A stretch of DNA of 64,000 nucleotides from Azolla caroliniana (Eukaryota; Plantae; Polypodiophyta): the NCBI GenBank assembly GCA_043228905.1, contig JBHGNT010000009.1, positions 4,216,001-4,280,000 on the forward strand. Reading direction: 5' to 3'. How positions within the stretch are numbered: the first letter of the stretch is position 1; every line of letters starts with the position of its first letter. Below the pieces are notes generated by a model. That model saw only the letters and a list, made by a program, of their open reading frames with translations. It had not been told where the DNA came from and did not search any database. Positions 1,592-54,926 of this stretch are shown piece by piece. The position numbers were made by a program, and so were the translations under genes.

Positions 1592-1705
1592 CTTTGTTAA
1601 ACACAGTGCTCGGCCACAACCGAGGAATAGGATCAACTCACAGAAAACAGGAAATACAAAATGCACGAAGACAATAGAGAGAAGAGTACACAGGATGTTT
1701 TACGT

Positions 1706-2497
1706 TGTCGCGAAGAAAACCGTCCATAGGCGGAATCGGCGCACCTAGGCGTGGGAACCGGTTCTTCACGCGCGCAAGCTCCAAGTAGTACATAAAAGCG
1801 AATTAGGAGGATAATCGGCAGGAACGGGCCCTAACACAAGTGGAGACAAACACCGCGCGAACAGTCTTTTCGGTCGCGCGCGCGAGTTAAGGAACTGTAC
1901 GAGTCGGCGGCGTAACTACGCGGATGCGTGAAGAACGGAGCGGATCCCTGTCCAAAAGGGACAGGGAATAAAGCTGACATGACGGCCTGCTCATCGGCCT
2001 ATATAAGGAGCAGGAAAGAGCTGTTGCAGATATCTCGCGCAGAGAGGACGAAGTGCTGTCGGACCGTTTCTGGACGCTTCTCTCTCTGTTTCCTTCCTTC
2101 TTGAGCTCCATAGCTTTCTGTGCAGGGTTCCGAGGAGGCTCGCGCTGTTTCGAGGAATGCCCGAGTGCTTCCGGCAGCACCTCCGACCTGCTACCCCGTT
2201 TGTGCGTCGAAGCGAACAGGCATCGGCATCTGTTCGCCGGCCTGTTCGGTTGTAACCAACCTGTGCCCCATCGAGGGTTGTAGTCGTGTTAGCCATTTTG
2301 TTAATACACATATTTAGTCATTCGCATCTGTCTGTGTCGGTGTCTGTTCGCGTTCTCCGTGCTGAAGGGCCGTGTCCCCGTGTATCCCCGGTCCTGCGTA
2401 GCCGGTACTCTCTCTTTCTCCTCCCTCGCTTGCTCTTTGGTTCGAGACCCCCGCGGTCCCGCCTCGATTCCACACGCACTTGCATAATATCTCGACA
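1706..2497 (+). repeat. E1 5' LTR
   Basis: Direct repeat of 8219-9010; TG...CA termini; TATATAAG box near 2000. Confidence 0.97.
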
Positions 2498-2501
2498 TCT
2501 T

Positions 2502-2519
2502 TGGTGAACCTGACGTGAA
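2502..2519 (+). promoter_or_regulatory. E1 primer binding site, tRNA-Trp (one mismatch)
   Basis: TGGTGAACCTGACGTGAA. Sister copies read TGGTGAACCCGACGTGAA, the complement of the plant tRNA-Trp 3' end as I recall it (...TTCACGTCGGGTTCACCA). Confidence 0.85.
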
Positions 2520-2541
2520 AGAGGCGGCAGAAGAGCAGAAG

Positions 2542-4668
2542 ATGAGGGGGTCGGATCTCGCAGAGGCCATGGCTTCGGCCGTGGATCGGATTGTAAACGC
2601 GCGCGAGATCACCGGTGCCCTCGACAGAGCTATTGAGGCGGTCGTCGGCACGATCGGCCGGTTCGATGGGAAGGATGCCACGAAGTATTTGGCGTCCTAC
2701 GGTGCAGAGATGCTGATGCGGGACATTCCGGAAGAAAGGCGTCTTGCCGGATTTCCCCGAGTGGCGATGCCGAGCATCCATGCGGAGGTGCTCGAGGTGC
2801 GGACGGAGAGCCGTACCTGGGAGGAGTTCGAAGGTCGGCTCCTAGAGAAATACGGGCTGGACGACGCGCTCCGGCTTTCGAAGCGAAGGTTCATGGAATG
2901 GGTGGAGTCCCCGGGGAAGGGAAGAAACGCGTCGGCGCTCCTCCGGGAGTTCGAGGAAAACTTTGCGCGCCTTTCGGCGCTCGACCGAACCATCCTGGAC
3001 ACGAGCCGGGTCTTGCTGTTTGTCAAGTCGGTCGACGAACGGGATCGGGAGCACGTGGGCCTCTTGCTGGAAACCGAAGACGGGCTCACTACCGACTGGG
3101 CGGCTGTCAGGAAGGTCTGTGGCCGTTTCGACAAACGGCGAGAATGGGCGGATAACGGTGCAACCGGGTCGGGCTCGGTCGCAGCAAGGAAGCTCGAACC
3201 AGCGCCACAGGTGCGAAAGGAAGAGACCCGAGAGTGGTTGGATACCGGTTCGGCTTCGACCGGCGTAGTCAGAGGCTCAACCGGAGGAGCGGCGCTGGAG
3301 GAATTGACGAAGGCGATAAAGGACCTCCAAATCGCGCAGGCCCGAAGGGAAGGAGGCGAACCGGCTCGTGACCGACGGCCGGCGGCAGGAAACAGGTGCA
3401 TGTGGTGCGATGAAGTCGGCCACATTCGGAAGGACTGCGGCGACTTCGCGGAGGCGCTGAGGAACGGGGTGGTGTACCTGTGGGAAGGACGGGTGCATGC
3501 CAGCGACACCCGAAGGGCCCTGAGCCGAAACGACGGAAAAGGTGGTATGAAAAGGTTGATGGAAGAGGCGGCGGCCCGACACGCGGAAACCGTTCACTAC
3601 TCGGCGTCGGCCGGCATTCGAGTCGGGGGCGGCGAGGCCCGAAGGGAAAGCAAAGCCGGGTTCTGGCCGACGATGCTGGAAGGCCTTGCCGGTGCAAGGC
3701 TAAAAGGGGAGGAATCGGACCGTGCGGAGAAACGGGTACGGGAGATGACCGGGTGGAGCGACCCGGTCGAGGAAAGGACGGGCTTCGTGGAAGCCGCTTG
3801 CCAGAACTACGAGGCTCTGGTGGAAGAGAAGCAGGTGGGGAGACCCGGGACGACCGGGCCCTCACAACGATACGAGACCCGGTCCGGGCCACGACGGGAC
3901 GAAGCCGGCGGGGCCGGTACGCAAGATAAACCCCAGAAGGGCGGGTACCGTCTGGGGACGGAGATAGAAAGGACCACGGACTTACGAAAGGTCCTGGAGG
4001 AACGGATCCTCGACAGCAAGGTGGAGCTGTCGTTACGAGAGGTGCTGGGAACTGCCAAGAAGGAGTTCCACGACTCCATCGTGGACTTGGTGAAACGGAA
4101 GAGGCTGTCGACGGAGACAGAACCGGAAAGACCGGTGGAAGTGCGGACGACGCACCTAGACGACATGGCGCTGGGAGACGAGTGGGCGGAAAGCCACTAT
4201 TCGAGACCACACTGGGCCCGAGCGACCACGGAAACCCCGGTGAAGATCGGCGATGTCCAGGAACCGGTGATAGCTTTGGTGGACCACGGATCGGAGATCA
4301 ATTTGATGTCCATGGACTTCTATAAGAAGGGCAAATGGCCGATCAACACCAAGCACGGGTGGAAAATAAGGGCAGCAACGCGCGCCACCGAGGAACTGCA
4401 CGGGGCCTGTCCGAATGTGCGAGTCAAGATCGGCGACGTCGAGATTGACCAGCACTTCTTCGTGCAGGAGACGTCTTCGCATCCGGTCATTCTGGGAGAG
4501 CCGTACATCACGGCGGCGCGAATGGAGACCAAAGTGCTGGACAATGGTTCGGCCTACGCAAGGGTCAAAAGCCAAGACGGGCGCCATTCGGTCCAGTTTC
4601 TGACGGTACGGCCGAACCACGAACGTAACCGCGATTCCCTCGGTTCCGAAAACCGAGAGGATTTTTAG
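2542..4668 (+). CDS. gag: E1 ORF1: Gag, CCHC zinc knuckle and aspartic protease
   Basis: Open frame from the first ATG at 2542. CMWCDEVGHIRKDC knuckle, ALVDHGSEINLM protease active-site motif, VILGEPY protease C-terminal motif. Confidence 0.92.
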   Translation: MRGSDLAEAMASAVDRIVNAREITGALDRAIEAVVGTIGRFDGKDATKYLASYGAEMLMRDIPEERRLAGFPRVAMPSIHAEVLEVRTESRTWEEFEGRLLEKYGLDDALRLSKRRFMEWVESPGKGRNASALLREFEENFARLSALDRTILDTSRVLLFVKSVDERDREHVGLLLETEDGLTTDWAAVRKVCGRFDKRREWADNGATGSGSVAARKLEPAPQVRKEETREWLDTGSASTGVVRGSTGGAALEELTKAIKDLQIAQARREGGEPARDRRPAAGNRCMWCDEVGHIRKDCGDFAEALRNGVVYLWEGRVHASDTRRALSRNDGKGGMKRLMEEAAARHAETVHYSASAGIRVGGGEARRESKAGFWPTMLEGLAGARLKGEESDRAEKRVREMTGWSDPVEERTGFVEAACQNYEALVEEKQVGRPGTTGPSQRYETRSGPRRDEAGGAGTQDKPQKGGYRLGTEIERTTDLRKVLEERILDSKVELSLREVLGTAKKEFHDSIVDLVKRKRLSTETEPERPVEVRTTHLDDMALGDEWAESHYSRPHWARATTETPVKIGDVQEPVIALVDHGSEINLMSMDFYKKGKWPINTKHGWKIRAATRATEELHGACPNVRVKIGDVEIDQHFFVQETSSHPVILGEPYITAARMETKVLDNGSAYARVKSQDGRHSVQFLTVRPNHERNRDSLGSENREDF

Positions 4669-4724
4669 AGAGGACTGCCAAGGCGTGGGGCCGCGACAGT
4701 CCGGATGCTCTGGGAAACCCCCAC
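4659..4724 (+). promoter_or_regulatory. Predicted -1 ribosomal frameshift signal (G GAU UUU, 6-nt spacer, stem/pseudoknot)
   Basis: GGATTTT at 4659-4665 directly precedes the ORF1 stop TAG, and the -1 frame is open into pol. Stem GGACTG (4672-4677) / CAGTCC (4697-4702); loop GTGGGG is complementary to CCCCAC (4719-4724). Confidence 0.8.
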
Positions 4725-7700
4725 ATCTGTACGATAAAACCGTGTACAATAGGTAGGAAATTTTGCTTCTCCGACAGCGGAGCATGTACGATGGTCGGCA
4801 TCACCGGCCGAGAGAAAACAAAGACGGAGGGGAGACTTCGGGCGTGCGGAGTTCTCGGCCCTGACGAAGGAATCAACGGAGCCGTGGAGGCAGTCTCCTT
4901 CGACGACACCTTGGGGATGCTGGGGAAGGTAGTCGAAGAAGACCTTAACGAAGACCGGACGATACCGGTATGTTCCGAAGAAATGTACGAAGTCATCGCG
5001 GACTTCGGTCGAGGGCTCGAGTCGGAACGGACGGCCCGAGTGAGCACCAAGTACAAGACGGTGGACCGGAAGGTGAGGCCAGTTGCGGCGCCCTTACCGG
5101 AGGGCAGCGAATCCCGAATCAAAGGGGTTGCATCGGACCCCAGCTTACGAGATCCGGCCTGCATAGGACACACCTTCACCAACGAGACGCTCCGCGAGCT
5201 GAAGATCGGTGGGGGCGGGTTCCTACTGCCGATGGAGGAAGACCGGTTTCGGAGAATGCTCGGAAGGCACGGGAAAGCCTTCGCATTCTCACCGGAGGAA
5301 ATCGGGTGCGTAGACCCGACGATCGTAGAGCCCATGGTGATGTTCACGGTACCGCATGTACCGTGGAATCTCAAGCCAATTTCGGTTCCGAGAGCTCACA
5401 TCCCGAAGTTGATGGAGCTGTTGAAGCAGAAAGTTGATATGGGCATTCTCGAGCCGTCGAGCGCCCCGTATTCAAACCGCTGGTTTACCGTGCCAAAGAA
5501 AAACGGATCATTGCGCTTCATTCAGGACCTGCAGCCGGTCAATAGAGTGACCATTCGGAATGCAGGGATCGGACCGACCATAGACGAGTTCGCGGAGGCC
5601 TTCGCCGGAAGGTCGATTTACTCGGTCGGTGATCTATACTCAGGGTATGACCAGTTCCAGCTAGCCGTGGAGAGCAGAGACATCACGACGATGCGAACTC
5701 CCCTCGGCCTCGTGCGGATGTGTACGCTGCCGCAAGGAGGGACCAACTCGGTGGCCCACATGGTGAATGCAATGAACAAGGTGCTGAGGGACTGCATCCC
5801 GGACATCACCATGCCGTTTCTAGACGACATCCCGATCAAGGGATGCCCGGTAGAAGAGAGGGACGAGACGATCGGGCCGGACGGATGCCGGCGATTCGTG
5901 GTAATGCACATCGACGACTGCGAGAAGGTGCTGCAAAGGCTAGAGGATGCGAGGCTCACCTTCTCGGGGGAGAAATCAGCCTTCGGGCAGTCGGAAATCA
6001 TGGTGGTCGGACACTTATGTGGGCCATATGGCCGGAAACCGTCTCCGGCAAAGGTAGAAGCCATCTCCGCGATGAAGCCCGTCTGCGGCTCGGTCACGGA
6101 AGTACGAAGATTCCTGGGGGCATGCGCATTCTACCACATATGGATCCCGCATTACGCCCACGTTGCGGAGCCGCTATACGGACTATTGAGGAAAGGGCGA
6201 AGATTCGAATGGCTAGACGAGCACACGGAGTCGGTCCGGAAGCTGAAGGAGGCTCTTTCGGCAGCACCGGCGCTCCGGAAGGCCGTCTACAGGAAGGGCA
6301 CCCCAGTGTACATAACGGTTGACACGAGTCCGACCGGAATCGGGTGGGTCGTCAACCAAGAAGACGAGGACGGCAATCGGTTTCCGATCCGATTCGGCGC
6401 GACGGTCCTCAGCGAACGGCAGCGAGGATACGCCCAGGTTAAACGCGAACTCTGGGGCATCGTTTCGGCGGTAAAGGCCGACAAGGACTATCTGATCGGG
6501 ACAGAGGTAATCATAGAGACGGACTGCATGCCGATTCTCGGCATGGTTTCCGGATGCGCGACGCCGGACCTGGCAATGCTCAGGTGGATAGCGTACATCA
6601 AGTCCCTGGACCCGGAAATACGACACATTTCCGGGAAAGACAACGCCATGGCCGACATGCTTTCAAGGGCGAGATTCGATGACGAGGGCGGCATGGTTTC
6701 GGAGGACGAAGAGGTCGGCGTGGACTTCTTCGAGACTGCGTATGTAACAACCGACGGAACAAGCACTCCGGCGCTTAACGACTTCGACGCGAGCAAGTAC
6801 GACGGGGAGTGGCTGCAGATCGGTGGGTTTTTGAAGACAATGACGCCCGATGCGTCGTGGACGAAGGACGAGGCCAACCGGATCCGGAAGAAAGCGTACC
6901 GGTTCTTTCTCCGGGACGGCTACCTATGGAAGCACCCGAAGAAGAGGGACGGCGCTCCGCTCCGGGTGGTGGCGATGAAGGAAGAACAGGAGGAGCTGCT
7001 GACGGCCTACCACGACAGCCCTTGGGCTGGACACCGTGGGACGTGGGCTACGTTTGAGAAACTGAAGGGGAAGTATTGGTGGTCGGGGCAGTACCGGGAC
7101 GTGCATCGGTTCGTGACAACTTGCGAGAGCTGTCAGATGCACTCCATAGTCCGACACCGGGACGAGCTTCACCCTACGTACCCTCCGACCATCCATTTCA
7201 AATGGATGGTAGATCTGGTGACGATGCCAATGGGGGTAGGACAGATGCGGTACCTGGTCCTAGCACGGGAGGATCTGACGAACCAGGTGGAAGGCTGAGC
7301 CCTCCTGAACAAAACGACCGCGGCCGTATGTCGATTCCTAATCGAGGACGTGATATGCCGGTACGGGTGCGTCGGGAAGATCGTGGCTGATCGAGGGGAG
7401 TTGGACACCGAAGAAGCCGCGGAGCTGTTCGACCGGCTCGGAGTTAAGCTCTCGCTCACCACTGCGTACAATCCGGAGGCGAATGGGAAGGTGGAGCGCG
7501 GACACGGGCCGATCGTCAAGGCGTTGGTTCGGGCATGCGGAGGCCAAGTCGGTAACTGGCCGCGACTGCTACCTTATGCTTTGTGGGCAGACCGGACCAC
7601 GCACAGTTCGGTAACCGGGTACATGCCGACGGAGCTCATGTTCGGCCAGAAGCCGATCATGCCGATGGAACGGACGATCTCCTCATGGGCAACGGTCGAT

Positions 7701-8147
7701 TGGAGGGACGAGATGAGCCGGGAGGAGTTGTTGGCCGCGCGTATACGACAACTCGAGCGGAGACCGGAGGACGTGGAACTGGCTACGGAGAGGCTCCGGG
7801 TGGCGAGGGCAAAGAACAAAGCCAGGTTCGACCGAACGCACCGGCTCCGACCGAAGAAGATCGAAGAAGGTGACTGGGTGCTCGTCTACGACAGCAGTCT
7901 CGACAACCAGCACCGAGCTACAAGGAAGTTCGCACGTAGGTGGTTCGGGCCTTATGTGGTACGGAGCGCCAATGACAACGGGACATATCACCTGGCGGAA
8001 CTTGACGGCACGAGAGTGGCGATACCGGTTGCAGGGAAGCGGATCAAAGCGTTCAAGAAGCGACATGACGACGAGCCGGACCCGGCTCTCCTAGTCAGCA
8101 GTGACGGACGATCCGGAAACGAGGAAGAACCGACGGGCGAGGAATGA
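4659..8147 (+). pseudogene. pol: E1 ORF2 pol (RT-RNaseH-integrase) with one premature stop in the integrase
   Basis: LPQGGTNS and PFLDD RT motifs, TVDTSPTGIG RNase H, H-H-C-C and D,D,E integrase, WFGPY. In-frame TGA at 7296-7298 where E2 has CGG; ORFs 4791-7298 and 7350-8147 are in the same frame. Confidence 0.93.
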
Positions 8148-8218
8148 AGACGGGCCGGTTTTCTCCGTCCCAACTCTCTTGGCGCATACCGGAGGATGCG
8201 CGGTTAGGTGGGGGCGGA

Positions 8219-9010
8219 TGTCGCGAAGAAAACCGTCCATAGGCGGAATCGGCGCACCTAGGCGTGGGAACCGGTTCTTCACGCGCGCAAGCTCCAAGTA
8301 GTACATAAAAGCGAATTAGGAGGATAATCGGCAGGAACGGGCCCTAACACAAGTGGAGACAAACACCGCGCGAACAGTCTTTTCGGTCGCGCGCGCGAGT
8401 TAAGGAACTGTACGAGTCGGCGGCGTAACTACGCGGATGCGTGAAGAACGGAGCGGATCCCTGTCCAAAAGGGACAGGGAATAAAGCTGACATGACGGCC
8501 TGCTCATCGGCCTATATAAGGAGCAGGAAAGAGCTGTTGCAGATATCTCGCGCAGAGAGGACGAAGTGCTGTCGGACCGTTTCTGGACGCTTCTCTCTCT
8601 GTTTCCTTCCTTCTTGAGCTCCATAGCTTTCTGTGCAGGGTTCCGAGGAGGCTCGCGCTGTTTCGAGGAACGCCCGAGTGCTTCCGGCAGCACCTCCGAC
8701 CTGCTACCCCGTTTGTGCGTCGAAGCGAACAGGCATCGGCATCTGTTCGCCGGCCTGTTCGGTTGTAACCAACCTGTGCCCCATCGAGGGTTGTAGTCGT
8801 GTTAGCCATTTTGTTAATACACATATTTAGTCATTCGCATCTGTCTGTGTCGGTGTCTGTTCGCGTTCTCCGTGCTGAAGGGCCGTGTCCCCGTGTATCC
8901 CCGGTCCTGCGTAGCCGGTACTCTCTCTTTCTCCTCCCTCGCTTGCTCTTTGGTTCGAGACCCCCGCGGTCCCGCCTCGATTCCACACGCACTTGCATAA
9001 TATCTCGACA
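8219..9010 (+). repeat. E1 3' LTR
   Basis: Direct repeat of 1706-2497, preceded by the PPT. Confidence 0.97.
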
Positions 9011-11201: not shown

Positions 11202-11204
<3 letters not shown>

Positions 11205-15713: not shown

Positions 15714-16627
15714 TGTCGTGGAGAAAACCGTCCCTAGGCGGAATCAGAGAATAATGTGCGCGAACTGGCCCTTATACGTAGGCACAAGTTTTGTTGTAAT
15801 ATATATATTTAGGTACAAGTCGGCAGATGTGAATATCCTAGGTAGCACGCATTTGTTAGGTAGAAAATCGAGGCGTATCTCTGTTCGAAAGGACAGAGAG
15901 TAAAGATGATGTAACGGGTTGTGAAGGCCTCCCTCCTTAGGCTATAAAAGAGAGGGAGAGAAATCGTAATGGGGATCGCTTTTGTCGAGGATGAAGTGCT
16001 GTCGGACTGGGACCGAACTCTTCTCCTCTGTCTTTCTCTGTATTTGCTCTGTGCAGGTTTTCGGGAGGTCGACTTTGCTCCATGGAACGCCCGAGTGCTT
16101 CCGACCGAGTCTCCATCTCGCGTTTGTGTGTGTGTGTGTGCGTGCATGCGTGCAGGCGTTAGAGCTTGTCGCTCACCAGCCCGCCGGTTGTAACCCCTTT
16201 CATCTGCTATATATATATATACACACACACATACACACATTCATCTTGTCTCAATCGGTTACGGTTTGTGTGTATTTGCGTGTGTGCGAAGCACGACCGT
16301 TGTCTTTCTTGTTCCCCTCCTGCTCTCTTTTTCCTCGGTCCAAGACCCTCGTGGTCCCGCCTTGTTCTTGTTAGGATCTCGGTCCCACCGGATGGGATAT
16401 GCAGGCCCGACATCGGAAGACCCGGTGAGAACCGGATGTTGCAGGCCTGGTGAGAACATCTCACCGGATGAAGGGACATATATGTAAATATGTTCTAGAG
16501 AGCCCACTAGGGCTATATTTGTAAATAGCCGAAAGTCATATTAGTATAAATATGACTTAGGGCAAACCTTTGTTAGTGAGTTGGTTGTGTCATTATCGTT
16601 GTGGTGATAATTCAGAGCGTAATTGTG

Positions 16628-16630
<3 letters not shown>

Positions 16631-16682
<52 letters not shown>
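16631..16682. repeat. (AG)n microsatellite in the C2 5' LTR (shorter copy at ~21347-21373 in the 3' LTR)
   Basis: Perfect AG run whose length differs between the two LTRs. Confidence 0.95.
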
Positions 16683-16685
<3 letters not shown>

Positions 16686-21343: not shown

Positions 21344-21377
<34 letters not shown>

Positions 21378-27953: not shown

Positions 27954-27971
27954 TGGTGAACCCGACGTGAA
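27954..27971 (+). promoter_or_regulatory. E2 primer binding site, tRNA-Trp
   Basis: TGGTGAACCCGACGTGAA, 4 nt after the LTR end. Confidence 0.88.
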
Positions 27972-27993
27972 AGAGGCGGCAGAAGAGCAGAAG

Positions 27994-40279: not shown

Positions 40280-42228
40280 TTCCTGCTCTTCTGCCGCCTC
40301 TTTCACGTCGGGTTCACCAAGATGTCGGGGTTGCTACGCCCTTGCGTGCTGAAAGGAGGAGGGACCACGGGGGTCTTGGACCGAAGAGCAAGAGAGAGAG
40401 AGGAGAAGGAGAGACCCGATTACACAGAACCGAAGATTGCACAGGGACACGGCCCAACAAACAGAGATCACAAACAAACGCCGACACAGATGGACGCAAC
40501 CACGGAAGATATGTACTTATGAATGCAAGAAAATAACAGCTAAAGTGTTACAACCCTCGGTGGGGCACGAAATAGATACTAACGAAAACGAACAGGGCGG
40601 CGAACAGATGCCGACCCCTGTACGTCGCGACGCACGGAAAGGGGAAAACAGGTCGGAGGTGCTGCAGGACGCACTCGGGGCGTTCCACGGAACAGCGCAA
40701 GCCTCCTCGAAACCTGCACAGGTACGCGGTGGAGCAGAAGACAGAGAGAGCAGGAGTGAGAGAGGAGCTTCGAAATCGGTTCGGCAGCACTTCGTCCTCT
40801 CTGCGCGAGATGTCTCACTTCTATTCTCCCTCTTCCTTTTATAGCCCGTCAAGAGGCCGTTTGGCATTAACTGCATACCAACCGAATCTACCCACCTAGG
40901 ATCCTCGTATGTACCTACTTCGTCCTTAGGTACTTCTTGGCGCGCGTGTGCGTGTAGAGCCGTTTCCCCCCCCCACGCCTTGTTCCTCCGATTCCCCCGG
41001 TGGGCGGTTTTCTTCACGACAGCGTGAAGGACGGAGCGGATCCCTGTTCAAAAGGGACAGGGGAATAAAGCTGACAGGACGGCCTGTTCGTCGGGCTATA
41101 AAAAGAGGAGGAAAGAGCTGTTGCAGATATCTCGCGCGGAGAGGACGAAGTGCTGTCGGACCGTTTCTGGACGCTTCTCTCTCTGTTTCCTTCCTTCTTG
41201 AGCTCCATAGCTTTTCTGTGCAGGGTTCCGAGGAGGCTCGTGCTGCTTCGAGGAACGCCCGAGTGCTTCCGGCAGCACCTCCGACCTGCTTCCCCCCCCC
41301 CTTTTTGTGCATCAAAGCGAACAAGTATCGGCATCTGTTCACCGGCTTGTTCGGTTGTAACCAACCTGAGCCCCATCGAGGGTTGTAGTCGTGTTAGCCA
41401 TTTTTGTTAATATACATATTTAGTCGTTCGCGTCTGTCTGTGTCGGTGTCTGTTCGCGTTCTCCGTGCTGAAGGGCCGTGTCCCTGTGTATCCCCGGTCC
41501 TGCGTAGCCGGTTCTCTCTCTTTCTCCTCCCTCGCTTGCTCTTTGGTTCGAGACCCCCGCGGTCCCGCCTCATCTCCACACGCACTTGCGAAATATCTCG
41601 ACAGCGTGTGCGTGGAGAAACGAGGCGGGACCACCGGGGTCTTGAACCGAAGAGCAGGTGATAGAAGGGGAAAGAGAAGGAGAGAGACGCCCGGTCACAT
41701 ATGAGCAAAGAAACACAGGGGCGTGGCCCGTCAACACAGAAGACGCGAATGGACACAGAGACAGGGAGAGACAAGTGTTTGTATATTAACGAATAACAAG
41801 TACACAGCAGAACACGCGAGCGGCTACAACCGAACAGGCCGGCAAACAGATGTCGATGCCTGTTCGTCTGCGCACGAAATGGGGATAGGATGGAGGTGCT
41901 GCCGGAAGCACACAGGCGTTCCTCGAAGCAGCGCGAGCCTCCCGAAACCTGCAGAGAAGAGCAACAAAGAACATGCAGAGGAGAAGCGTTCGGTTCCGGT
42001 CCGACAACACTTCGTCCTCCTGAATGCCCTCCCCTTCTCCCTGCGTCTCCCTCTCCTTTATAGCGTCAAGAAGGGAGCCGTCTCCCTCATTTACTTCCTA
42101 CCTACCGAATCTAACTACCCCGGATCTCTCTCTATACCTAATTCTCTATTATATACATTAAGAGCGTGCACACGTGAAGGGCCGGTTCATGTGCGCTATT
42201 CACCGATTGCGCCAGGGGACGGTTTTCT

Positions 42229-45200
42229 TCACGACATTCGCCCCCACCTAACCGCGCATTCACCGGTATGCGCCAAAATTGGTTTCTGGTTGGAGAAAAC
42301 CGGTCTGGGTTCCGTTTCTTTGTCCATCGGTTCGCCCTCCGTTTCAGACTGTTCGTCTTCGCTGTCCAGGCCTCTTAGATCCGGTTCATCGTCGTGGAGT
42401 TTCTTGAATGCTTTGACCCGCTCCCCTGCTACCGGCATCGCCATCCTCGTACTGTCGAGTTCCTCCAGGTGATACGTCCCGTTGTCGTTGGCGCTTGTTA
42501 CCACGTAAGGCTCGAACCACCGGTTCGCGAACTTCCGTGTTGCTCGGTGCTGGTTGTCGAGGCTGTTGTCGTAGACTAGCACCCAGTTGCCTTCCTCGAT
42601 TTTCTTTGGTCGGAGCCGGTGCGTCCGGTCGAACCGGGCTTTGTTCTTCATCCTCGCCGCCCGAAGTTTCTCCGCCGCTCGTTCCACGTCCTCTGGCCTC
42701 CGCTCGAGCTGCCGCATACGCGCCGCTAGCAGTTCTTCCCGACTCATTTCGTCACTCCAGTCTACTGTCTCCCAAGAGGAGATCGTCCATTCCATTGGCA
42801 TGATCAGCTTCTGTCCGAACATGAACTCTGACGGCAGGAACCCGGTTACCGAACTGTGCGTTGTCCGGTCCGCCCACAAGGCGTAAGGTAACAGCCGTGG
42901 CCAGTTCCCGACCTGGTCTCCGCATGCCCGGACTAGCGCTTTGACGATTGGCCCGTGCCCGCGCTCTACCTTCCCGTTTGCCTCCGGATTGTACGCTGTG
43001 GTGAGCGAGAGCTTGACCCCTAACCGGTTGAACAACTCCTCGGCCTCTTCGGCGTCCAACTCCCCGTGGTCAGCCACGATCTTTCCGACGCACCCGTACC
43101 GGCATATCACGTCCTCGATCAGGAACCGACACACGGCCGCGGTCGTTTTGTTCTGCAGGGCTCGGCCTTCCACTTGGTTCGTCAGGTCCTCCCGGGCCAG
43201 CACCAGATATCGCATCTGCCCTACGCCCATCGACATCGTCACCAAATATACCATCAATTTGAAGTGGATGGCCGGAGGGTATGTGGGGTGAAGCTCATCC
43301 CGATGTCGGATTATGGAGTGCACTTGACAGCTCTCACAAGTTGTCATGAACCGATGCACGTCCCGGTACAGTCCCGGCCACCAGTACTTCCCCTTCAGCT
43401 TCTTGAACGTGGCCCACATCCCACAGTGCCCAGCCCAGGGGCTGTCGTGGTAGGCCTTCAGCAATTCCTCCTGTTCCTCCTTCGTCGCCACTACTCGGAG
43501 CGGGATGCCGTTCCTCTTCTTCGGGTGCTTCCACAAGTATTCGTCCCGGAGAAAGAACCGGTACGCTTTCTTCCGGATCCGGTTGGCCTCGTCCCTTGTC
43601 CACGATGTGTCCGGCATCATTGTCCTTAAGAATCCCCCAATTTGCAGCCACTCCCCGTTGTACTTGCTCTCGTTGAAATCGTTAAGCGCCGGAGTGCTCC
43701 CCCCCTCGGTTGTTACGTAAGCCGCCTCGAAGAAGTCTACGCCGACTTCCTCGTCCTCCGAAACCATGCCGCCCTCGTCGTTGAATCGCGCCCTCGAAAG
43801 CATGTCGGCCATGGCATTGTCTTTCCCGGAAATGTGTCGTATTTCCGGATCCAGGGACTTGATGTACGCTATCCACCTGAGCATCGCCAGGTCCGGGGTT
43901 GCGCATCCGGAAACCATGCCGAGAATCGGCAGGCAGTCCGTCTCGATAATCACCTCTGTCCCAATCAGATAGTCTTTATCGGCCTTTACCACCGAAACGA
44001 TACCCCAGAGTTCGCGTTTAACCTGGGCGTATCCTCGCTGTCGCTCGTTGAGGACCTTCGCGCCGAACCGGATTGGGAACCGGATGCCGTCCTCGTCTTC
44101 TTGGTTGACGACCCATCCGATCCCGGTCGGACTCGTATCTACCTTTATGTAGACGGGAGTGCCTTTCTCGTAGACAGCCTTCCGGAGTGCTGGAGCCACA
44201 GCAAGAGCCTCCTTCATCTTTCGCACCGTCTCCGTATGCTCGTCTCGCCACTCGAATTTTCGCCCCTTTTTTAGCAACCCATATAGCGGCTCGGCAATGT
44301 GGGCGTAATGTGGGATCCATATGTGGTAGAACGCGCATGCTCCCAAGAACCTCCATACCTCCGTGACCGAGTTACAGTCGGGCTTCATTGCGGAGATGGC
44401 TTCCACCTTTGCTTGAGACGGTTTCCGGCCATACGGTCCGCATAGATGTCCGACGACCATGATCTCTGATTGCCCGAAGGCCGATTTTTCCCTAGAGACC
44501 TCTAGCCTCTGCAGCACCCTCTCGCAGTCGTCAATGTGTGTCGCCACGAATTTCCGGCATCCGTCCGGTCCGATCGTTTCGTCCTTTTCCTCCACCGGAC
44601 ATCCCTTGATTGGGATGTCATCCAAGAATGGCATGGTGATGTCTGGGATACAATCCCTCAGCACCTTGTTCATCGCATTCACCATGTGGGCCACCGAGTT
44701 CATCCCTCCCTGTGGCAGGGTACACATCCGCACTAGGCCGAGAGGAGTCCGCATCGTCGTAATGTCTCTGCTTTCTACGGCTAGTTGGAACTGATCGTAC
44801 CCCGAGTACCGATCACTGACCGAGTACATCGACCTTCCGGCGAAGGCCTCCGCGAACTCGTCTATCGTTGGTCCGATTCCTGCGTTCCGAATGGTCACTC
44901 TGTTGACCGGTTGCAGGTCTTGAATGAAGCGCAACGCCCCGTTCTTCTTCGGTACGGTAAACCACCGGTTTGAGTACGGGGCACTCGACGGTTCGAGGAT
45001 GCCCATATCAACTTTCTGCCTTAATAGCTCCATCAGCTCCGGGATGTGAGCTCTCGATACGGAAATTGGTTTGAGATTCCACGGCACATGCGGTACCGTG
45101 AATATCACCATCGGCTTCACGACTGCCGGGGCTACGCACCCGATCTCTCCCGGCGAGAATGCGAAGGCTTTCCCGTGCCTTTCGAGCATTCTCCGAAACT

Positions 45201-45801
45201 GGTCTTCTTCCGCCTGCAGTAGGAACCCGCCCCCACCTACCTTGAGCTCCCGTAGCGTTCTATCGGTGAAGGCGTGCCCTATGCAGGCCGGATCTCATAA
45301 ACTGGGGTCCGACGCGACCCCCTTGATTCGTAACTCGCTGCCCTCCGGTAAGGGTGCCGCGACTGGCCTTACCTTCCGGTCCACAGTTTTGTACTTCGTG
45401 TTAACCCGGGCCGTCCGATCTGACTCGAGCCCTCGACTGAAGTCCGCGATGACTTCATACATCTCTTCTGAACAAACCGGTATCGTCCGTTCCTCTTTAA
45501 GGCCCTCTCCGACCACCTCTCGCCATATTCCGAAGGTATCGTCGAAGGAGACCGCCTCCACGGCCCCGTTGATTTCCTCGCTGGGCCCGAGAACTCCGCA
45601 CGCCCGAAGTCGCTCTTCCAGCCTTGTCTTTTCTCAGCCTACGACGCCAACTATCGTACACCCTCCGTTGTCGGAGAAACAAAACTTCCTACTTATGGTA
45701 CAAGTTTTCATCGGTTTTGCTTCTATCGTACATTTGTGGGGTTTTCCCGGAGTGTCCGGACTGTCGCGGCCCCACGCCTTGGCAGCCCTCTCTAAAAATC
45801 C
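42229..45801 (-). pseudogene. pol: E4 pol (stop at ~45295, small in-frame deletion in RT); the frame runs through the PPT into the LTR
   Basis: 986-aa ORF at 45189-42229 plus upstream pieces; RLEVSREKS versus RLEDARLTFSGEKS in E1/E3. Confidence 0.92.
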
Positions 45802-47918
45802 TCTCGGTTCTCGCCACCGAGGGACTCGTGGTTTCGCTCGTGGTTCGGTCGCACCGTCAGGAACTGGACCGAATGACGCCCGTCCTGACTTTTGACCCTC
45901 GTGTAAGCCGACCCGTTGTCCAGCACCTTGGTCTCCATTCGCGCCGCCGTAATGTACGGTTCCCCTAGAATGACCGGGTGCGAGGACGTTTCCTGCACAA
46001 AGAAGTGCTGGTCTATTTCGATGTCGCCGATCTTGACTTGCACGTTTGGGCAGGCCCCGTGTAGTTCCTCGGTGGCTCGTGTCGCCGCCCGTATCTTCCA
46101 CCCGTGCTTAGTGTTGATCGGCCATTTCCCCTTTTTGTAGAAGTCCATGGACATCAGGTTTATTTCCGAACCGTGGTCCACCAGTGCCACCACCGGTTCC
46201 TGCACATCTCCGATCTTCACCGGGGTTTCCGTGGTCGCTCGGGCCCAATGTGGCCTCGAATAGTGGCTCTCCGCCCACTCGTCTTCCAGCGCCATGTCCT
46301 CTATGTGCGTCGTCTGCACTTCCACCGGCCTTTCCAGTTCTGCCTCTGTCGACAGCCTCTTCCTCTTCACCAAGTCCACGATGGAGTCGTGGAACTCCTT
46401 CTTGGCTATCCCGAGCACCTCTCGCAACGACAGTTCCACCTTGCTATCGAGGATTCGTTCTTCCAGGACTTTTCGTAGGTCCGTGGTCCTTTCGATCTCC
46501 ATGCCCAACCGGTATCCGCCCTTCTTGTGGTTATCCCGGGTACTGGACTCACCGGCCTCGATCCGTTTCGGTCCGAATCGGGTTTCGTATCTCTGTGAGG
46601 GTCCGGCCCCTCCGTTCTTACCTACCCGTTTGTCTTCAACCAGAGCCTCGTAGTTCTGGCAAGCTGCTTCGACGAAACCCGTCTATTCTTCGACCGGGTC
46701 ATTCCATCCGGTTACCTCTTGGACCCGCTTCTCCGCGCGGTCCGCCTCGTCTCTCTTCAGTCGGGCACCGGCGAGGCCTTCCAGCACCATCGGCTAGAAT
46801 TCGGCTTTGCTCTCCTTCCGGGCCCCTCTGCCCCCGACCCGAATACCGGCTGACACTGAGTAGTGGACGGTCTTCGCGTGCCGGGCTGCAGCCTCTTCCA
46901 TCAGTTTTTTCATTCCTCCTCTCCCGTCGTTTCGGTTCAGGGCCCTCCGGGTATCGCTGGCGTGCACCCGATCTTCCCACAGGTACACTACCCGGCTTCT
47001 CAAAGCCTCCATAAAGTCCCCGCAGTCTTTCCGGATGTGGCCGACCTCGTCGCACCACATGCACCTACTTCCTGCCGGAGGCCGTCGGTCACGAGCCTGA
47101 TCGCTGCCTTCCCTCCGAGCCTGGGCGATCTGGAGATCCTTTACCGCTCGTGTCAACTCCTCCAGAGCTGTTCCCCCGGACGAGCCTCTGATCACGCCGG
47201 TCGAAAGCGAACCGGTTTCGAGCCACTCCCGGGTCTCTTCCCTTCGTGCCTGCGGTATCGGTTCGAGCTTCCTTGCTGCGACAGGTCCTGCCCCGGTCGC
47301 CTCTGTATCAGCCCACTCCCACTGTTTGTCAAAATGACCGCAGACTCTCTTTACCGCGGCCCAATCGGTCGTCAGCCCATCTTCGGTTTCCAGTAAGGAG
47401 CCAACTTGCCCCCGATCCCGTGCGTCAACCGATTTGACAAACAGTAGGACACGACTTGTGTCCAGAACAGTCCGATCGAGCGTCGAAAGGCGCGCAAAGC
47501 GTTCCTCGAACTCCCGGAGGAGTACCGACGCATTTCTTCCTTTGTTGGGGGACTCCACCCACTCCATGAAGCTCCGCTTCAAAAGTTGAAGCGCGTCATC
47601 CAACCCGTATTTCTCCAGGAGCCGTCCTTCGAACTCTTCCCAGGTCCGGCTCTTCGCCCGGACCTCGAGTACATCCGCATGGATGCCTGGCATCGCCACT
47701 CGAGCGAATCCAGCAAGATGCCTCTCTTCCGGAATATCCCTCATCAACATCTCCGCCCGATAGGACGCCAAATAACTCGTGGCATCCTTTCCACTGAACC
47801 GGCCGATCATACCGACGATCGCCTCAATAGCCCTGTCAAGGGCGCCGGTGCCCTCGCGTGCGCTCACTATCCGGTCCACGGCCGAAGCCATGGCCTCTGC
47901 AAGATCCAACCCCCTCAT
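45792..47918 (-). pseudogene. gag: E4 ORF1 gag-protease with a nonsense mutation
   Basis: ORFs 47918-46794 and 46508-45792; TGG>TAG at 46796-46794. Confidence 0.92.
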
Positions 47919-48612
47919 CTTCTGCTCCTCTGCCGCCTGTTCACGTCGGGTTCACCAAATATGTCGCGTTGTTACTCGCATGCGTGGAGAAACGAGGCGG
48001 GACCACCGGGGTCTTGAACCGAAGAGCAGGTGATAGAAGGGGAAAGAGAAAGAGAGAGACGCCCGGTCACGTATGAGCAAAGAAACACAGGGGCGTGGCC
48101 CGTCAACACAGAAGACGCGAATGGACACAGAGACAGGGAGAGACAAGTGTTTGTATATTAACGAATAACAAGTACACAGCAGAACACGCGAGCGGCTACA
48201 ACCGAACAGGCCGACGAACAGATGCTGATGCCTGTTCGTCTGCACACGAAATGGGGATAGGATGGAGGTGCTGCCGGAAGCACACGGGCGTTCCTCGAAG
48301 CAGCGCAAGCCTCCCGAAACCTGTAGAGAAGAGCAACAGAGAACAGGCAGAGGAGAAGCGTTCGGTTCCGGTCCGACAACACTTCGTCCTCCTGAATGCC
48401 CTCCCCTTCTCCCTGCGTCTCCCTCTCCTTTATAGCATCAAGAAGGGAGCCGTCTCCCTCATTTACTTCCTACCTACCGAATCTAACTACCCCGGATCTC
48501 TCTCTGCACCTAATTCTCTATTATATACATTAAGAGCGTGCACACGTGAAGGGCCGGTTCATGTGCGCTATTCACCGATTGCGCAAGGGGACGGTTTTCT
48601 TAACGATAGCGT

Positions 48613-49998: not shown

Positions 49999-50353
49999 TG
50001 TCAAGATTCGAACTCTTGACACGACCATGTTATAATCTAGTATTATGAGTTAACCAAGATATCTAGTACTAGTTATGTATATAATTGGTCCTTATTATTT
50101 TGGTAGCATCATGTGCATAGTTGCACCCTTGTAGTATTTACTCTTGGCACATGCATGCATACCTACATGCTCTATTGTAGATTCACATGCGTGCAACAAG
50201 TGTGCATGCCATGTAGTATAAATAGAGGAGTTCACCTTGAAGGAATTCAAGGTGAACAACACCAGTTATGGAGTCTTTCCTTTAATACTATCTTCTTTCT
50301 TGTCCATTTGGTTATCTTCTTGCTTGTCTCTTGAGTTTATGATCCGTGACAGT

Positions 50354-50364
50354 TTGTTCACCTT
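50354..50364 (+). promoter_or_regulatory. Putative self-priming PBS of G2
   Basis: TTGTTCACCTT is the exact complement of AAGGTGAACAA (50249-50259), which begins 32 nt from the first base of TATAAATA (50217). Confidence 0.78.
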
Positions 50365-50401
50365 CCCATCCTCATAGCTCTTCCTCTCATAAGCTATAGC
50401 T

Positions 50402-53400
50402 ATGTCCGACTCAACTAGTGAGTTAGGCCAAATAATGGTAGCCTTACGACAACTACAGCTTGAAAATGAAGCTCTTCGAAATTCTTTACAAGAACTTCAA
50501 GTTGGTACCTCCCTATCCTCACAACCCCTGAACCCTAGTCTCCCACAACAACCTAGCCTAGAGCCCGATCTTCTACTAACATCTAGCCTAGCTTCGTCAC
50601 AGTTTCTTGAGCCTAAGGTTAGCCTCCCAGAAAAATTTGATGGAACGACGTCGCGTTTCCGAGGGTTCATCAACCAAGTTCGATTTATCATTCGGCTACA
50701 ACCTCAACGTTATGGAGATGGTCTTCGACAAGTCTGTTGCTTTACTTGATTCTGGGGCATCTTCTTGCTTCATCAAAGTTGCGTTTGCCCAAGCACATGG
50801 CGTACCTGTCGTTGGCCTCTCAAAACCCATTCCAGTTGAAGCCATCGACGGGTGCGTCCTCTCGTCAAGTGCAATTACTCAAGCTACAATCCCATTAGGG
50901 CTTCGGGTGGGCTCACACAAAGAGGAGCTCACCTTTTACCTCATCGCATCTCCTCGACATCCGATCGTCTTAGGACTAACGTGGTTGGAGGCGCACAATC
51001 CGATAGTGGATTGGTGCAACCGCTCGATCACATTTAGCAAGCCAAGATACTCGTGCAAAAGTATGAAGGTAAATTTAGTTTCCTATCCTTTGGAGATGGT
51101 CGACTCCGAATTGACTACCCCATCATCGGTCCAGGATGGGTTTGTTTGTGGCGCCATTTCTAACACACTCCATGTTATTCCCGAAAAATACCAACACTTC
51201 TCCGACGTATTTGAAAAATGTAATGCTGATCGTTTGCCTGAACACCGGCTCTACGACTATCCGATTGATCTTCAAGAAGGTGCGTGTCCACCCTTTGCTC
51301 CTCTATATGCGTTGTCTGCACCAGAGTTGAAGACCCTTCATGTGTATCTCGATGAGAACCTCGAGAAAAGCTTTATTCAACCTTCTAAGTCACCAGCCGG
51401 GGCCCAAATTTTATTTGTGAAGAAGAAGGACGGCTCTCTACGCTTATGCGTCGACTACCGAGGTCTCAACAAACTCACTGTGCGCAACCGCTATTCGCTA
51501 CCTTTGATCCCCGAACTCCTTGATCGGCTCCGAGTTGCGCGTGTCTTCTCCAAAGTTGATCTGCGTGGAGCATACACTCTAGTACGCATCAAGCCGGGGG
51601 ATGAATGGAAAACCGCATTTCGAACACGGTATGGGCATTTGGAATACAAGATAATGCCTTTTAGTCTTACTAACGCTCCCGCAGTTTGTCAACATATGAT
51701 GAACGATATTTTCCGGGAATATCTTGATATTTTTGTTGTCATTTACCTCGATGATATTCTCATTTTTTCGCCAAACATGGAGGTACACACTCGCCAAGTC
51801 CGATTAGTTCTTGCCAAACTTCACGAGCATGGCCTTTATGCCAAAGGCGAGAAATGCGAGTTCGACCGTATCTCGATCGAATTTCTGGGCTACATCATTT
51901 TGCCCACTGGCATCACCATGGATATGAAGAAGGCCTCTATCATTCAGGCGTGGGTGACTCCAAGGCGACTTAAAGATGTGCAATCCTTCCTTGGCTTCGC
52001 CAATTTTTACCGTCGCTTCATCAAGGGGTTTTCCACCCTTGCACAACCTTTTATCGCTCTCACCCATAAAGGCACTCCATTTTTATGGACCTCGGAGGCA
52101 CAAAATACGTTCGACTCACTCAAACACGCATTCATCACTACCCCGGTGCTGCTACATGCCGACCCCACAAAACCCTTCCAAGTCGAAACCGATGCCTCTG
52201 ACTTTGCCATTGGCGCCATCTTATCCCAGGAAGACGACATCAACCTAATGCACCCAGTGGCTTACTATTCCCGAAAATTTACGGCACCCGAAATCAATTA
52301 TCCCATTTACGACAAGGAGCTTGTTGCTATCATTGCTGCCTTTGAAGAATGGCAACCCTACTTGGCCGACGCACAACATCGTGTCCAAGTAGTGATTGAT
52401 CATAAAAATTTAGTTTATTTTTCCAGGACTTGTACTTTGAATCGAAGGCAGGCCCGTTGGTCGACATTTCTCGCCGACTACGATTTTGAGATCGTATTTC
52501 GACCTGGTGGCCAACATGGGAAGGCTGATGCCCTTTCTCGCCGAGCGGACCTTGCACTCTGCCCTGGGGATGTTGCTTATGCTTAACAATCTAGACGTTT
52601 GTTGAAACCCGACCAATTGCATCTTTTTTCCACTTGTATGTTGCAGGATGATTCTTTACTCCAACAAATCACTGATGCATCCAAGACCGATGCGTTCGCC
52701 AATGAGATTCGAGATATTTACAAAACCCCTCCAAGGCGACCAAAAGGAAGGATCTTGATACCTTCACCATACAAGAGGGTTTGTTGTTCCGAGATCATCT
52801 CTTATACGTCCCAGAGGGCCCATGTCGCACCTGGGTGTTGCGGGAATGCCACGATGACCGACTTGCAGGTCATTTCGGGGTCGCGAAAACCCTCGAGCTA
52901 ATCTCTCGGGGGTATTGGTGGCCACAACCAAGGAAGCTGGTCAAAGAATACATAAAGAGTTGTGAGGTTTGTGCTCACTCCAAAGCCATTCATCATCGGC
53001 CATACTGCTTACAGCCGCTTCCATGTGCTCGTCGTCCTTGGGCCTCTATCTCTATGGACCTGGTAACTGATCTACCCTTGGTCAATAGCTATGACTCGGT
53101 GTTGGTCGTTGTCGATCGGTTTACGAAGATGGCTCACTTCACTCCATGCTCCAAAACCATTTCCGGAGAAGGAATGGTGCATCTCCTACTCAACAATGTG
53201 GTACGCTTGCATGGACTCCCGGATGATGTCATCTCGGATCGCAGAGCCCAGTTTGTCTCTCACTTCTAGCAGTGCCTGCTACAAACTTTAGGCCTCTCTG
53301 TCAAGTTTTCCTCCGCTTATCACCCCCAAAATGACGGGCAAATGGAGCGTGTCAACCAAATCCTTGAGCAGTATCTTCGGTGCTCGGTTAGTTACCAACA

Positions 53401-54169
53401 AGATGATTGGGTCAACTTACTTTCGCCCGCGGAATTCGCCTACAATAATTCTCTCCATGGATCGACTGGCGTCACTCCCTTCTTTGCCAACTACGGTTTA
53501 CATCCTCGCTTCAACATTTCCCTTCCTACCACTTCCGTGAACCCTTCGGCGGAGGATCGCGCCCGCATTTTGGAAGAACTACATCATGATTTATCCTTGG
53601 AGCTTAGTCTTGCTAGTGAACGATACAAGAAGCAGGCTGATCCCCATCGATCTTCCACTCCACACTTTGTCGTTGGAGACATGGTCTGGTTGTTACGTCG
53701 ACACATCTTTACTACTCGTCCATGTGCGAAACTTGATTACAAGAAGTTGGGACCATTCCGTATCATCGAGTGCATCAATCCCGTTGCCTTCCGGCTCGCC
53801 CTTCCATCCCACTTCCGGATTCACGATGTTTTTCATGTCTCCCTCCTCGAACCCCATTATGCTTCACAACTCCCAGGACGTCAAGCCCCACCACCACCAC
53901 CTGTGCAATTGACGACAGGGGAGGAATATGAGGTCGACCAAATCCTTGACTCGCGTTGGCACCGTCGACACTTGCAATACCTTGCCCTATGGAGGGGTTA
54001 CCCCATGTCTGAGGCCACATGGGAACCATCAGCAAATTTACAAAATGCCCTAGAGGTCGTCCAAGATATTCATCACCGATATCCCCACAAACTAGCGGCC
54101 GATTTGGGAAGGCGGCGTAAGAGGGGGGATAATGTCAAGATTCGAACTCTTGACACGACCATGTTATAA
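50402..54169 (+). pseudogene. gag-pol: G2 truncated gag (50402-~50732) fused to pol (PR-RT-RH-IN-chromodomain) with stops and frameshifts
   Basis: ALLDSGA protease, IYLDDILIFS RT, VETDASDFAIG RH, GHFG...CEVC integrase, LGPF, YEVDQILDSR...YLALWRGY...TWEP chromodomain. Confidence 0.92.
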
Positions 54170-54490
54170 TCTAGTATTATGAGTTAACCAAGATATCTAG
54201 TACTAGTTATGTATGTAATTGGTCCATGTTATTTTGCTAGCATCATGTGCATAGTTGCTTCCTTGTAGTATTTACACTTGGCACATGCATGCATACCTAC
54301 ATGCTCTATTGTAGATTCACATGCGTGCAACAAGTGTGCATGCCATGTAGTATAAATAGAGGAGTTCACCTTGAAGGAATTCAAGGTGAACAACACCTGT
54401 TATGGAGTCTATCCTTTAATACTATCTTCTTTCTTGTCCATTTGGTTATATTCTTGCTTGTCTCTTGAGTTTATGATCCGTGACAGCTAT

Positions 54491-54926
54491 TAACCAATTG
54501 TCCCCTTCTAGACCCGATTTTTGGATTTGGGTTCTAGCATGGTAGACATAGTCTTCTAGCGAGGAAAATTTCCGACTAGAGAGGTTCATTAAAGCTTGTG
54601 TTGCCTCGGTTTGAGATGGAGATTGCAGAAATTGACCCTTGAAAACTGTGACAAAATCTGTCCATGTATCGGGCAATTTCCCCAAAGTACGAAGCCCACG
54701 CCACCAAGCGGCGGCCTTACCCCCTAGTTCTCGACCGACATATGCAATCTTCGTACTATCTGGCGTGGGATAGAGCTGAAAATGAGATTCCCATCGGCCT
54801 AGCCACTTGCAGATTGCTTCTTCGGTTCTTTCCTTTTTGTCTCCCGTAAATGGCTTAACGACAAACGATGGTTCACCTTGTCGCTCAGTAGGTCTATTAG
54901 TCTCACGTTGTAAACTAATGACACGT
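54491..54926 (-). pseudogene. gag: G1 gag, N-terminal piece
   Basis: LPDTWTDFVTVFKGQFL...SLEDYV retrotransposon Gag motif; continuous with 49998 across the GCTAT TSD. Confidence 0.8.

What the first reader, a model, noticed from the sequence alone, without database searches (positions are those of the whole stretch)
1702..54926. A plant gypsy family that integrates at CpG with 4-bp target-site duplications
Seen: all four complete E elements have 4-bp TSDs. With one flanking base each side the empty sites read T-ACGT-G (E1), C-GCGT-G (E2), C-GCGT-G (E3) and T-GCGT-A (E4), all alternating YRCGYR. The 4-bp length is confirmed by rebuilding the empty sites from sister LTRs (C4, E2 5' LTR, E4 5' LTR) and the G1 RT frame. 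The two one-sided junctions are ACGT (E6) and CCGT (E5), so CG is central in 6/6 sites. The complete C4 and G2 elements instead make 5-bp TSDs (TTCGT, GCTAT). Known: most plant LTR elements make 5-bp TSDs with little sequence preference, whereas Drosophila errantiviruses such as ZAM make 4-bp TSDs at CG-alternating sites. Inference: the E integrase has intrinsic CpG-centred specificity, perhaps methylation-sensitive. That could steer a chromodomain-less element into CpG-rich, TE-dense chromatin.
Basis: partly seen in the sequence, partly recalled or inferred. Interest (0 to 1): 0.85.

Follow-up and report, generated by a model that had tools for sequence, protein, structure and literature searches.

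The report
Phygy-like retrotransposons inserting at CG
These plant jumping genes insert almost only at four-letter DNA sites with CG in the middle, likely because their integrase enzyme picks that sequence, a habit already published for the moss Phygy group to which they likely belong.

Summary
All four complete E elements have 4-bp duplications (ACGT, GCGT x3), and both one-sided junctions have a central CG. In public contigs of related copies, 69 of 72 distinct left junctions and 22 of 24 right junctions have CG at the same place, against 3.2% background. The motif is NCGN with ACGT as the mode and T avoided at the joining base, not strict YRCGYR. It is not new for plants: Neumann et al. 2019 (PMC6317226) list Phygy, a chromodomain-less gypsy lineage of moss, with 4-bp NCGN duplications in all 186 elements and a mostly tRNA-Trp primer. 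E matches these traits, and its named relatives are liverwort and fern proteins. The defining tree with Phygy references could not be built, so membership is likely (about 0.85), not shown. Integrase-intrinsic readout is the likeliest mechanism but is inferred. Methylation sensitivity is untested, and the flanks are not CpG-rich, so steering into CpG-rich DNA is unsupported. An earlier scan note on another piece of this genome also names Phygy.

The parts
1706..9010 (+). E1, complete element of 7,305 bp; LTRs 1706-2497 and 8219-9010 (1 mismatch in 792); pol interrupted by a stop near 7297; inserted in a copia LTR
1702..1705 (+). E1 left TSD copy ACGT (right copy 9011-9014)
27148..41603 (+). 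E2, complete element (7,324 bp without E3); 3' LTR interrupted by E3; inserted in E4's 3' LTR; TSD GCGT at 27144-27147 and 41604-41607
27954..27971 (+). E2 primer-binding site; 17 of 18 aligned letters match the Rfam Rous sarcoma virus PBS consensus (tRNA-Trp type, recalled)
27757..30120 (+). E2 gag-protease ORF (DUF4100 hit; protease-like LVDHGSEIN)
30111..30117 (+). Candidate -1 slippery site GGATTTT before the ORF1 stop; same motif in E1 and E3
   Evidence: function inferred
30081..33599 (+). E2 RT-RNaseH-integrase ORF, open throughout; no chromodomain, no extra RNase H
32400..33596 (+). E2 integrase: zinc domain, DDE core, SH3-like end; closest solved relatives are the Ty3 and PFV integrases
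33657..33669 (+). E2 polypurine tract
33894..41021 (-). E3, complete element of 7,128 bp; LTRs 33894-34592 and 40323-41021 (1 mismatch in 699); TSD GCGT at 33890-33893 and 41022-41025
27130..48608 (-). E4, complete element (7,019 bp without E2/E3); LTRs differ at 19 of 629; inserted in the RT of chromovirus G1; TSD GCGT at 27126-27129 and 48609-48612
15714..24247 (+). E5, truncated element; 5' LTR interrupted by a copia at 16369; one junction only, flank CCGT at 15710-15713
54927..64000 (-). E6: E-type 3' LTR (54927-55496) and PPT; interior interrupted by C4 and running off the window; one junction only, flank ACGT at 54923-54926
56862..62435 (+). C4, copia control with 5-bp TSD TTCGT
49999..54485 (+). 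G2, Tcn1-like chromovirus control with 5-bp TSD GCTAT

Best explanation
E is a recently active family of chromodomain-less Ty3/gypsy retrotransposons that inserts at 4-bp sites with CG in the middle, likely belongs to the Phygy lineage of seed-free plants, and likely owes this preference to its own integrase reading the target DNA. Shown: 4-bp TSDs in 4 of 4 complete copies; CG at -3/-2 and +2/+3 of junctions; ACGT preferred; T avoided at the joining base; intact DDE integrase; no chromodomain. Inferred: the integrase joins the two LTR ends 4 bp apart and so must kink the target at its central step, which favours a flexible pyrimidine-purine step as in foamy virus. A further base-specific contact would narrow TA/CA/CG down to CG. 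The choice would be local (4-5 bp) and would not steer the element to CpG-rich regions.
For: Window: 6 of 6 sites CG-centred. Related loci: CG in 69 of 72 distinct LTR-confirmed left junctions, and 79 of 85 with no homology filter, against 3.2% background; CG in 22 of 24 distinct right junctions (union). CG at both offsets fits a 4-bp duplication; the 6-bp alternative needs CG at -5/-4, seen in 5 of 72. Loose-end majority lines before the LTR start end in ACGT in runs X2 and X5, 16 contigs each. Symmetrised position 1 is A 64, C 19, G 13, T 4%, against T 37% in background NCGN; PFV-type integrases also avoid T there and favour a central YR step (PMC4422553 sections 6 and 14). Phygy: 4 bp in 100% of 186 elements, NCGN, tRNA-Trp in 81%, no extra domain. 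E: tRNA-Trp-type PBS, no chromodomain or extra RNase H, named relatives in Riccia, Calypogeia and Adiantum. ZAM integrase binds and nicks its CGCGCg site in vitro (PMC2527525 abstract), a precedent for intrinsic readout.
Against: No Phygy reference sequence could be put in a tree, and no Physcomitrium-named protein was among the 120 listed hits of any of three homologue searches (323, 913 and 794 hits in all). E copies are 7.0-7.3 kb, below the 7.66-9.97 kb of moss Phygy. In 11 contigs holding one LTR with host-like DNA on both sides, only 3 have matching 4-mers, all ACGT, the commonest word. I read the rest as collapsed-repeat joins or inter-element recombinants, but they give no independent proof of TSD length. 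Runs X4 and X11 showed no loose-end row at the LTR start among the rows printed. No biochemistry was done.
Confidence: 0.8

Rival explanations
1. The integrase or a partner senses the methylation state of the central CG, preferring or avoiding 5mCG, so host DNA methylation decides where E lands.
For: CG is chosen over the other flexible steps (69 of 72). Two exceptions read ATGG and ATGC, as expected if a methylated CG was deaminated after insertion. LTR-pair transitions are about twice as frequent at CG (9 of 508) and CHG (7 of 321) as at CHH (8 of 915), a weak hint that these repeats are methylated (significance not tested).
Against: No methylation data were available. ZAM-group elements choose CGCG in a host with almost no CpG methylation (recalled), so CG choice does not require methylation. 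The methyl clash modelled for PFV concerns the base at the joining point, not the central C. Pfam finds no methyl-binding domain in E pol.
Confidence: 0.12
2. E belongs to a sister lineage of seed-free plants (Selgy-, TatI- or fungal Ylt1-related) that shares or separately gained the NCGN preference.
For: Membership is not tested by tree; copies are shorter than moss Phygy; TatI also has 4-bp TSDs and a tRNA-Trp PBS. A link between the DUF4100 gag and fungal Ylt1-like elements is recalled only.
Against: TatI always carries an extra RNase H between protease and RT; none is found in E. Selgy uses tRNA-Ala and averages 5.0 kb. Phygy is the only lineage for which Neumann et al. report a sequence preference.
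Confidence: 0.12
3. The CG excess is a by-product of CG-rich surroundings, of selection after insertion, or of assembly.
For: The window is all transposon DNA with CpG o/e 1.05; the C4 control TSD also contains a CG.
Against: CG occupies one exact offset in 69 of 72 junctions, while every other offset from -30 to -2 has 0-6 of 72. Flank CG density is 3.0-3.6%.
Confidence: 0.02

Closest known systems
Phygy clade, non-chromovirus Ty3/gypsy (Neumann et al. 2019, PMC6317226; passages, section 9 and supplementary files 5-7 read; files 1 and 3 not readable)
   Same: 4-bp TSD, NCGN target, tRNA-Trp-type PBS, no chromodomain, no extra RNase H, coding region filling the interior, seed-free plant relatives. 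In moss, Phygy nested in Tcn1 was the commonest recurring pair (PMC6911290, passages); here E4 sits in a chromovirus.
   Different: Described as specific to Physcomitrella patens, later also reported in the liverwort Apopellia (PMC12885004, passages). E is 7.0-7.3 kb against 7.66-9.97 kb. E's intact copies show gag-protease overlapping RT-RH-INT in the -1 frame, where Neumann lists the organisation as not determined. The motif is refined here to ACGT-dominant with T avoided at position 1.
ZAM-subgroup errantiviruses of Drosophila (PMC2527525, abstract; PMC5408687, passages)
   Same: CG-containing palindromic target; precedent for an integrase that binds its target sequence.
   Different: ZAM wants CGCGCg, has AGT-type ends and an env gene; E wants a single central CG (ACGT mode), has TG..CA ends and no env-like ORF. 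No sign of close kinship; a tree with ZAM was not built.
Prototype foamy virus integrase (PMC4422553, abstract and sections 6 and 14)
   Same: 4-bp stagger, central pyrimidine-purine step, T avoided at the joining base; closest solved structures by fold and, with Ty3, by sequence.
   Different: For PFV and three other 4-bp viruses central YR use is raised by 63% on average; E uses CG at 96% of left junctions. At the position aligned to PFV Ala188, E and 116 of 116 aligned relatives have Glu or Asp, in a loop one residue shorter.
TatI and Selgy clades (PMC6317226, supplementary file 5)
   Same: 4-bp TSDs; TatI also has a tRNA-Trp PBS.
   Different: TatI has an extra RNase H, absent in E; Selgy uses tRNA-Ala and is about 5 kb; no NCGN preference is reported for either.

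Membership tests
Phygy | Clusters with P. patens Phygy in RT-RH-INT trees (primary definition) | not testable with these tools
   Reference FASTA too large to read; no Physcomitrium-named hit among listed homologues. A quick RT-RH tree of 59 rows groups E with unnamed, fern and liverwort sequences, far from G2.
Phygy | 4-bp TSD | tested here: met
   4 of 4 complete copies
Phygy | NCGN target preference | tested here: met
   6 of 6 in the window; 69 of 72 left and 22 of 24 right junctions in related loci
Phygy | PBS for tRNA-Trp (81% of members) | tested here: met
   17 of 18 letters align to the Rfam RSV_PBS consensus (E 0.05, below gathering score). That RSV primes on tRNA-Trp is recalled. 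No tRNA gene in 31 viral loci with the same 15-mer.
Phygy | No chromodomain and no extra RNase H | tested here: met
   Pfam to E = 1 on E2 and E3 pol; G1 and G2 give chromodomain hits
Phygy | Short element, polyprotein spans the interior, no extra ORF | tested here: met
   E2 ORFs run from the PBS to 33599; 3' LTR starts at 33670
Phygy | Length 7,656-9,968 bp in moss (descriptive; the authors call size insignificant for classification) | tested here: inconclusive
   E copies are 7,019-7,324 bp (from coordinates), below a range that comes from one species
TatI | Extra RNase H between protease and RT | tested here: not met
   No such domain; definition
Selgy | tRNA-Ala PBS, about 5 kb | tested here: not met
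   PBS is RSV-like; 7.0-7.3 kb
Chromovirus | Chromodomain and chromovirus-type RT | tested here: not met
   No chromodomain; 26% RT-RH identity to G2
Errantivirus (ZAM group) | env ORF and AGT-type LTR ends | tested here: not met
   TG..CA ends and no room for a third ORF; definition
Fungal Ylt1-like clade | Phylogenetic clustering with Ylt1 | not tested
   No reference sequence held; link recalled only (clade described in PMC2864245, passages)

The most novel reading that the evidence does not exclude
The E/Phygy integrase is a sequence-specific CpG reader whose activity depends on whether the central CG is methylated, helped by a lineage-wide remodelled target-binding loop (acidic residue, one residue shorter, where retroviruses have a small neutral one). 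Host DNA methylation would then directly set where a chromodomain-less retrotransposon inserts, across mosses, liverworts and ferns.
Probability: 0.12. Interest if true: 0.7.

Novelty: new member of a known kind. Interest (0 to 1): 0.27.

Why it matters
The target rule is in print, though in what I read only as one sentence and one table cell, with no mechanism. This window adds very young copies with an open pol frame (E2, E3), a quantitative motif, and a sign that the rule extends beyond moss. An LTR integrase that picks CG at about 96% is far more specific than retroviral integrases and is a ready test case for how intasomes read bases and whether 5mC matters.

Tried and rejected
No whole genome is held, so no genome-wide count was possible. 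Laying contigs on the bare LTR showed a high-copy family but no flanks. ESM Atlas gave no answer. Viral contigs held no pol relative. 31 viral loci with the PBS 15-mer held no tRNA gene. Cluster look-ups of 10 homologues gave no organism names. Three homologue searches listed no Physcomitrium protein. Apparent solo LTRs in short-read contigs were rejected as a TSD test (3 of 11 matched). Rows dropped before the 69-of-72 count: 27 PPT-preceded 3' LTRs, 9 loci without LTR homology, 6 too short to test, 6 duplicate flanks (120 to 72). The tree used 59 hand-picked rows out of the roughly 135 candidates and only the quick search finished. Rejected readings: strict YRCGYR; CpG-rich steering; the acidic loop residue as the direct reader of the central CG, because its PFV/HIV counterpart contacts bases 2-3 outside the cut, so it is only a lead. 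Ten paper searches listed no study of Phygy integrase biochemistry or methylation sensitivity; only listings were seen for most hits and subscription papers are not covered. Neumann's supplementary files 1 (per-element TSDs) and 3 (domain sequences) could not be read and may already hold the ACGT bias.
Full report
Observation. The window is wall-to-wall LTR retrotransposon DNA. Four complete E elements are present: E1 (1706-9010, +), E2 (27148-41603, +), E3 (33894-41021, -) and E4 (27130-48608, -). E3 sits in E2's 3' LTR, E2 in E4's 3' LTR, and E4 in the RT of chromovirus G1. Their flanks are ACGT/ACGT and three times GCGT/GCGT, and the 5-bp flanks never match. Aligning left and right flanks separately to sister LTRs gives a 4-bp overlap in 5 of 5 LTR comparisons for E1, E2 and E3; two further DNA projections found no usable sister. 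G1's RT motif continues in register for about ten codons across a 4-bp overlap. E5 (from 15714) and E6 (to 54927) each keep one junction, CCGT and ACGT. C4 and G2 have 5-bp duplications. With CG at 7.5% of steps, 6 of 6 has a chance of about 2e-7 by my arithmetic.

Wider test. Of these, 27 are 3' LTRs behind the PPT. Of the other 93, 78 continue into E-like LTR sequence, 9 do not and 6 are too short to test. The 78 collapse to 72 distinct flanks, and 69 of 72 have CG at -3/-2; without the homology filter it is 79 of 85. Background CG in the same flanks is 3.2%, and no other offset exceeds 6 of 72. On the right side, 22 of 24 distinct junctions have CG at +2/+3 (union; exceptions ATGC and TCCA). 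One CG seen at both offsets implies a 4-bp duplication. Contigs of sequencing runs X2 and X5 give loose-end majority lines ending in ACGT before the LTR start, 16 contigs each; X4 and X11 printed no such row. Caveats: the loci come from few assemblies, are 70-90% like the window's LTRs and may be from related species. Of 11 contigs with host-like DNA on both sides of one LTR, only 3 have matching 4-mers; this is expected of collapsed repeats, but it means they do not confirm TSD length.

The motif. ACGT makes up 30 of the 69 CG sites and is 7-fold enriched over background NCGN words. Position 1 is A 64%, C 19%, G 13%, T 4%, against T 37% in background. CG density is 3.6% within 60 bp of the sites and 3.0-3.1% further out, and median flank GC is 41%. 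24 of 71 flanks hit transposons of this window, with no genome background to compare. Five of six window sites have left-flank CG below the window mean. There is no sign of steering into CpG-rich DNA. E itself is CG-rich (10% of steps against 3.5-4.5% in G elements), which would mildly favour self-nesting; this is inference.

What E is. It has gag (DUF4100 hit) and protease in one frame, and RT-RNaseH-integrase overlapping in the -1 frame at GGATTTT. It has no chromodomain and no extra RNase H. The PBS aligns 17 of 18 with the Rfam RSV PBS, which I recall as tRNA-Trp. LTR pairs differ at 1 of 792 (E1), 1 of 699 (E3), 3 of about 806 (E2) and 19 of 629 (E4), so activity is recent. Named relatives are Riccia (up to 64% over RT to integrase), Calypogeia and Adiantum proteins. 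A quick tree of 59 rows puts E in a group with the Adiantum rows (SH-aLRT 94), next to Riccia, and far from G2. G2 has an intact aromatic cage and an 11-nt self-priming match, like Tcn1, a clade reported only in non-seed plants and fungi. The host is therefore likely a seed-free land plant, possibly a fern.

Mechanism. The integrase has invariant D, D and E residues across 55 aligned sequences, and a confident model (pLDDT 83) matches PFV intasome chains best. For retroviruses with 4-bp duplications, a flexible central pyrimidine-purine step is favoured and T is avoided at the joining base (PMC4422553 sections 6 and 14). E shows both, which points to the same bending chemistry (inferred). Flexibility alone would also admit TA and CA/TG, so the near-exclusive CG needs a base-specific contact (inferred; residue unknown). 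ZAM shows that an LTR integrase can bind its target sequence directly (PMC2527525 abstract). One lead: at the position aligned to PFV Ala188, E and 116 of 116 aligned relatives (of 120 that matched) have Glu or Asp in a loop one residue shorter. In PFV and HIV that residue reads bases outside the duplication, so it is not the obvious CG reader. Nothing here tests methylation sensitivity. The slight excess of CG/CHG transitions between LTR pairs and two TG-centred exceptions only suggest that sites are methylated after insertion.

Comparison with what is known. Neumann et al. 2019 state that Phygy elements are the exception among plant LTR elements in preferring NCGN. Their table gives 186 elements, 4 bp in 100%, tRNA-Trp in 81% and no extra domain. 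Jedlicka et al. 2019 also found GC-rich centres in 4-bp TSDs and Phygy nested in Tcn1 in moss (PMC6911290 passages). Phygy has since been reported in a liverwort (PMC12885004 passages). E works like Phygy in every trait tested except a slightly shorter length. The defining tree could not be built, so I call it a likely member (about 0.85). TatI, Selgy, chromoviruses and errantiviruses each fail a tested feature. PMC7466625 and PMC5014426 (passages) added nothing on target sites. An earlier scan note on another piece of this genome also names Phygy as closest; it is an AI note and not independent evidence.

Verdict. The feature is real and strong but belongs to a known kind. Interest 0.27. The open and testable part is how the integrase reads CG and whether methylation matters (probability about 0.12, interest 0.7 if true).

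Noticed in passing
window 32841-32858: Integrase loop DRGELD: acidic residue at the position aligned to PFV Ala188 in 116 of 116 aligned relatives, and one residue shorter than in PFV or G2.
   Followed up: partly
window 55497-56861 and 62436-64000: E6 has an E-type LTR and PPT, but its interior shows only weak patchy likeness to E pol and no Pfam hit in 8 ORFs tested; possibly a non-autonomous derivative with internal repeats.
   Followed up: partly
window 30111-30120 (also E1, E3): Gag-protease and RT-RH-INT overlap in the -1 frame at GGATTTT followed by the stop; Neumann lists Phygy's ORF organisation as not determined.
   Followed up: partly
window 33640-33669; 27 loci: The 30 bases before the 3' LTR are nearly identical across related loci whose LTRs are only 70-85% alike.
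   Followed up: no
window 49999-54485: G2 is Tcn1-like: no tRNA PBS, an 11-nt match for self-priming within its LTR, intact aromatic cage.
   Followed up: partly
window 24706-25341: G1's chromodomain lacks the first aromatic cage residue, unlike G2's, so two chromovirus types share the window.
   Followed up: no
window 27130-48608: Three-deep nest E4 > E2 > E3 with alternating orientation, both inner insertions in 3' LTRs; E2 lies 18 bp from E4's end.
   Followed up: partly
window 48606-48608: E4's 5' LTR begins TA instead of TG, and E4's integrase has DHGELD; several related LTRs end in TA instead of CA.
   Followed up: no
protein P0303: A close RT relative (65%) is labelled as a Kitasatospora protein on a 1.5-kb contig, probably plant contamination of that assembly.
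   Followed up: no
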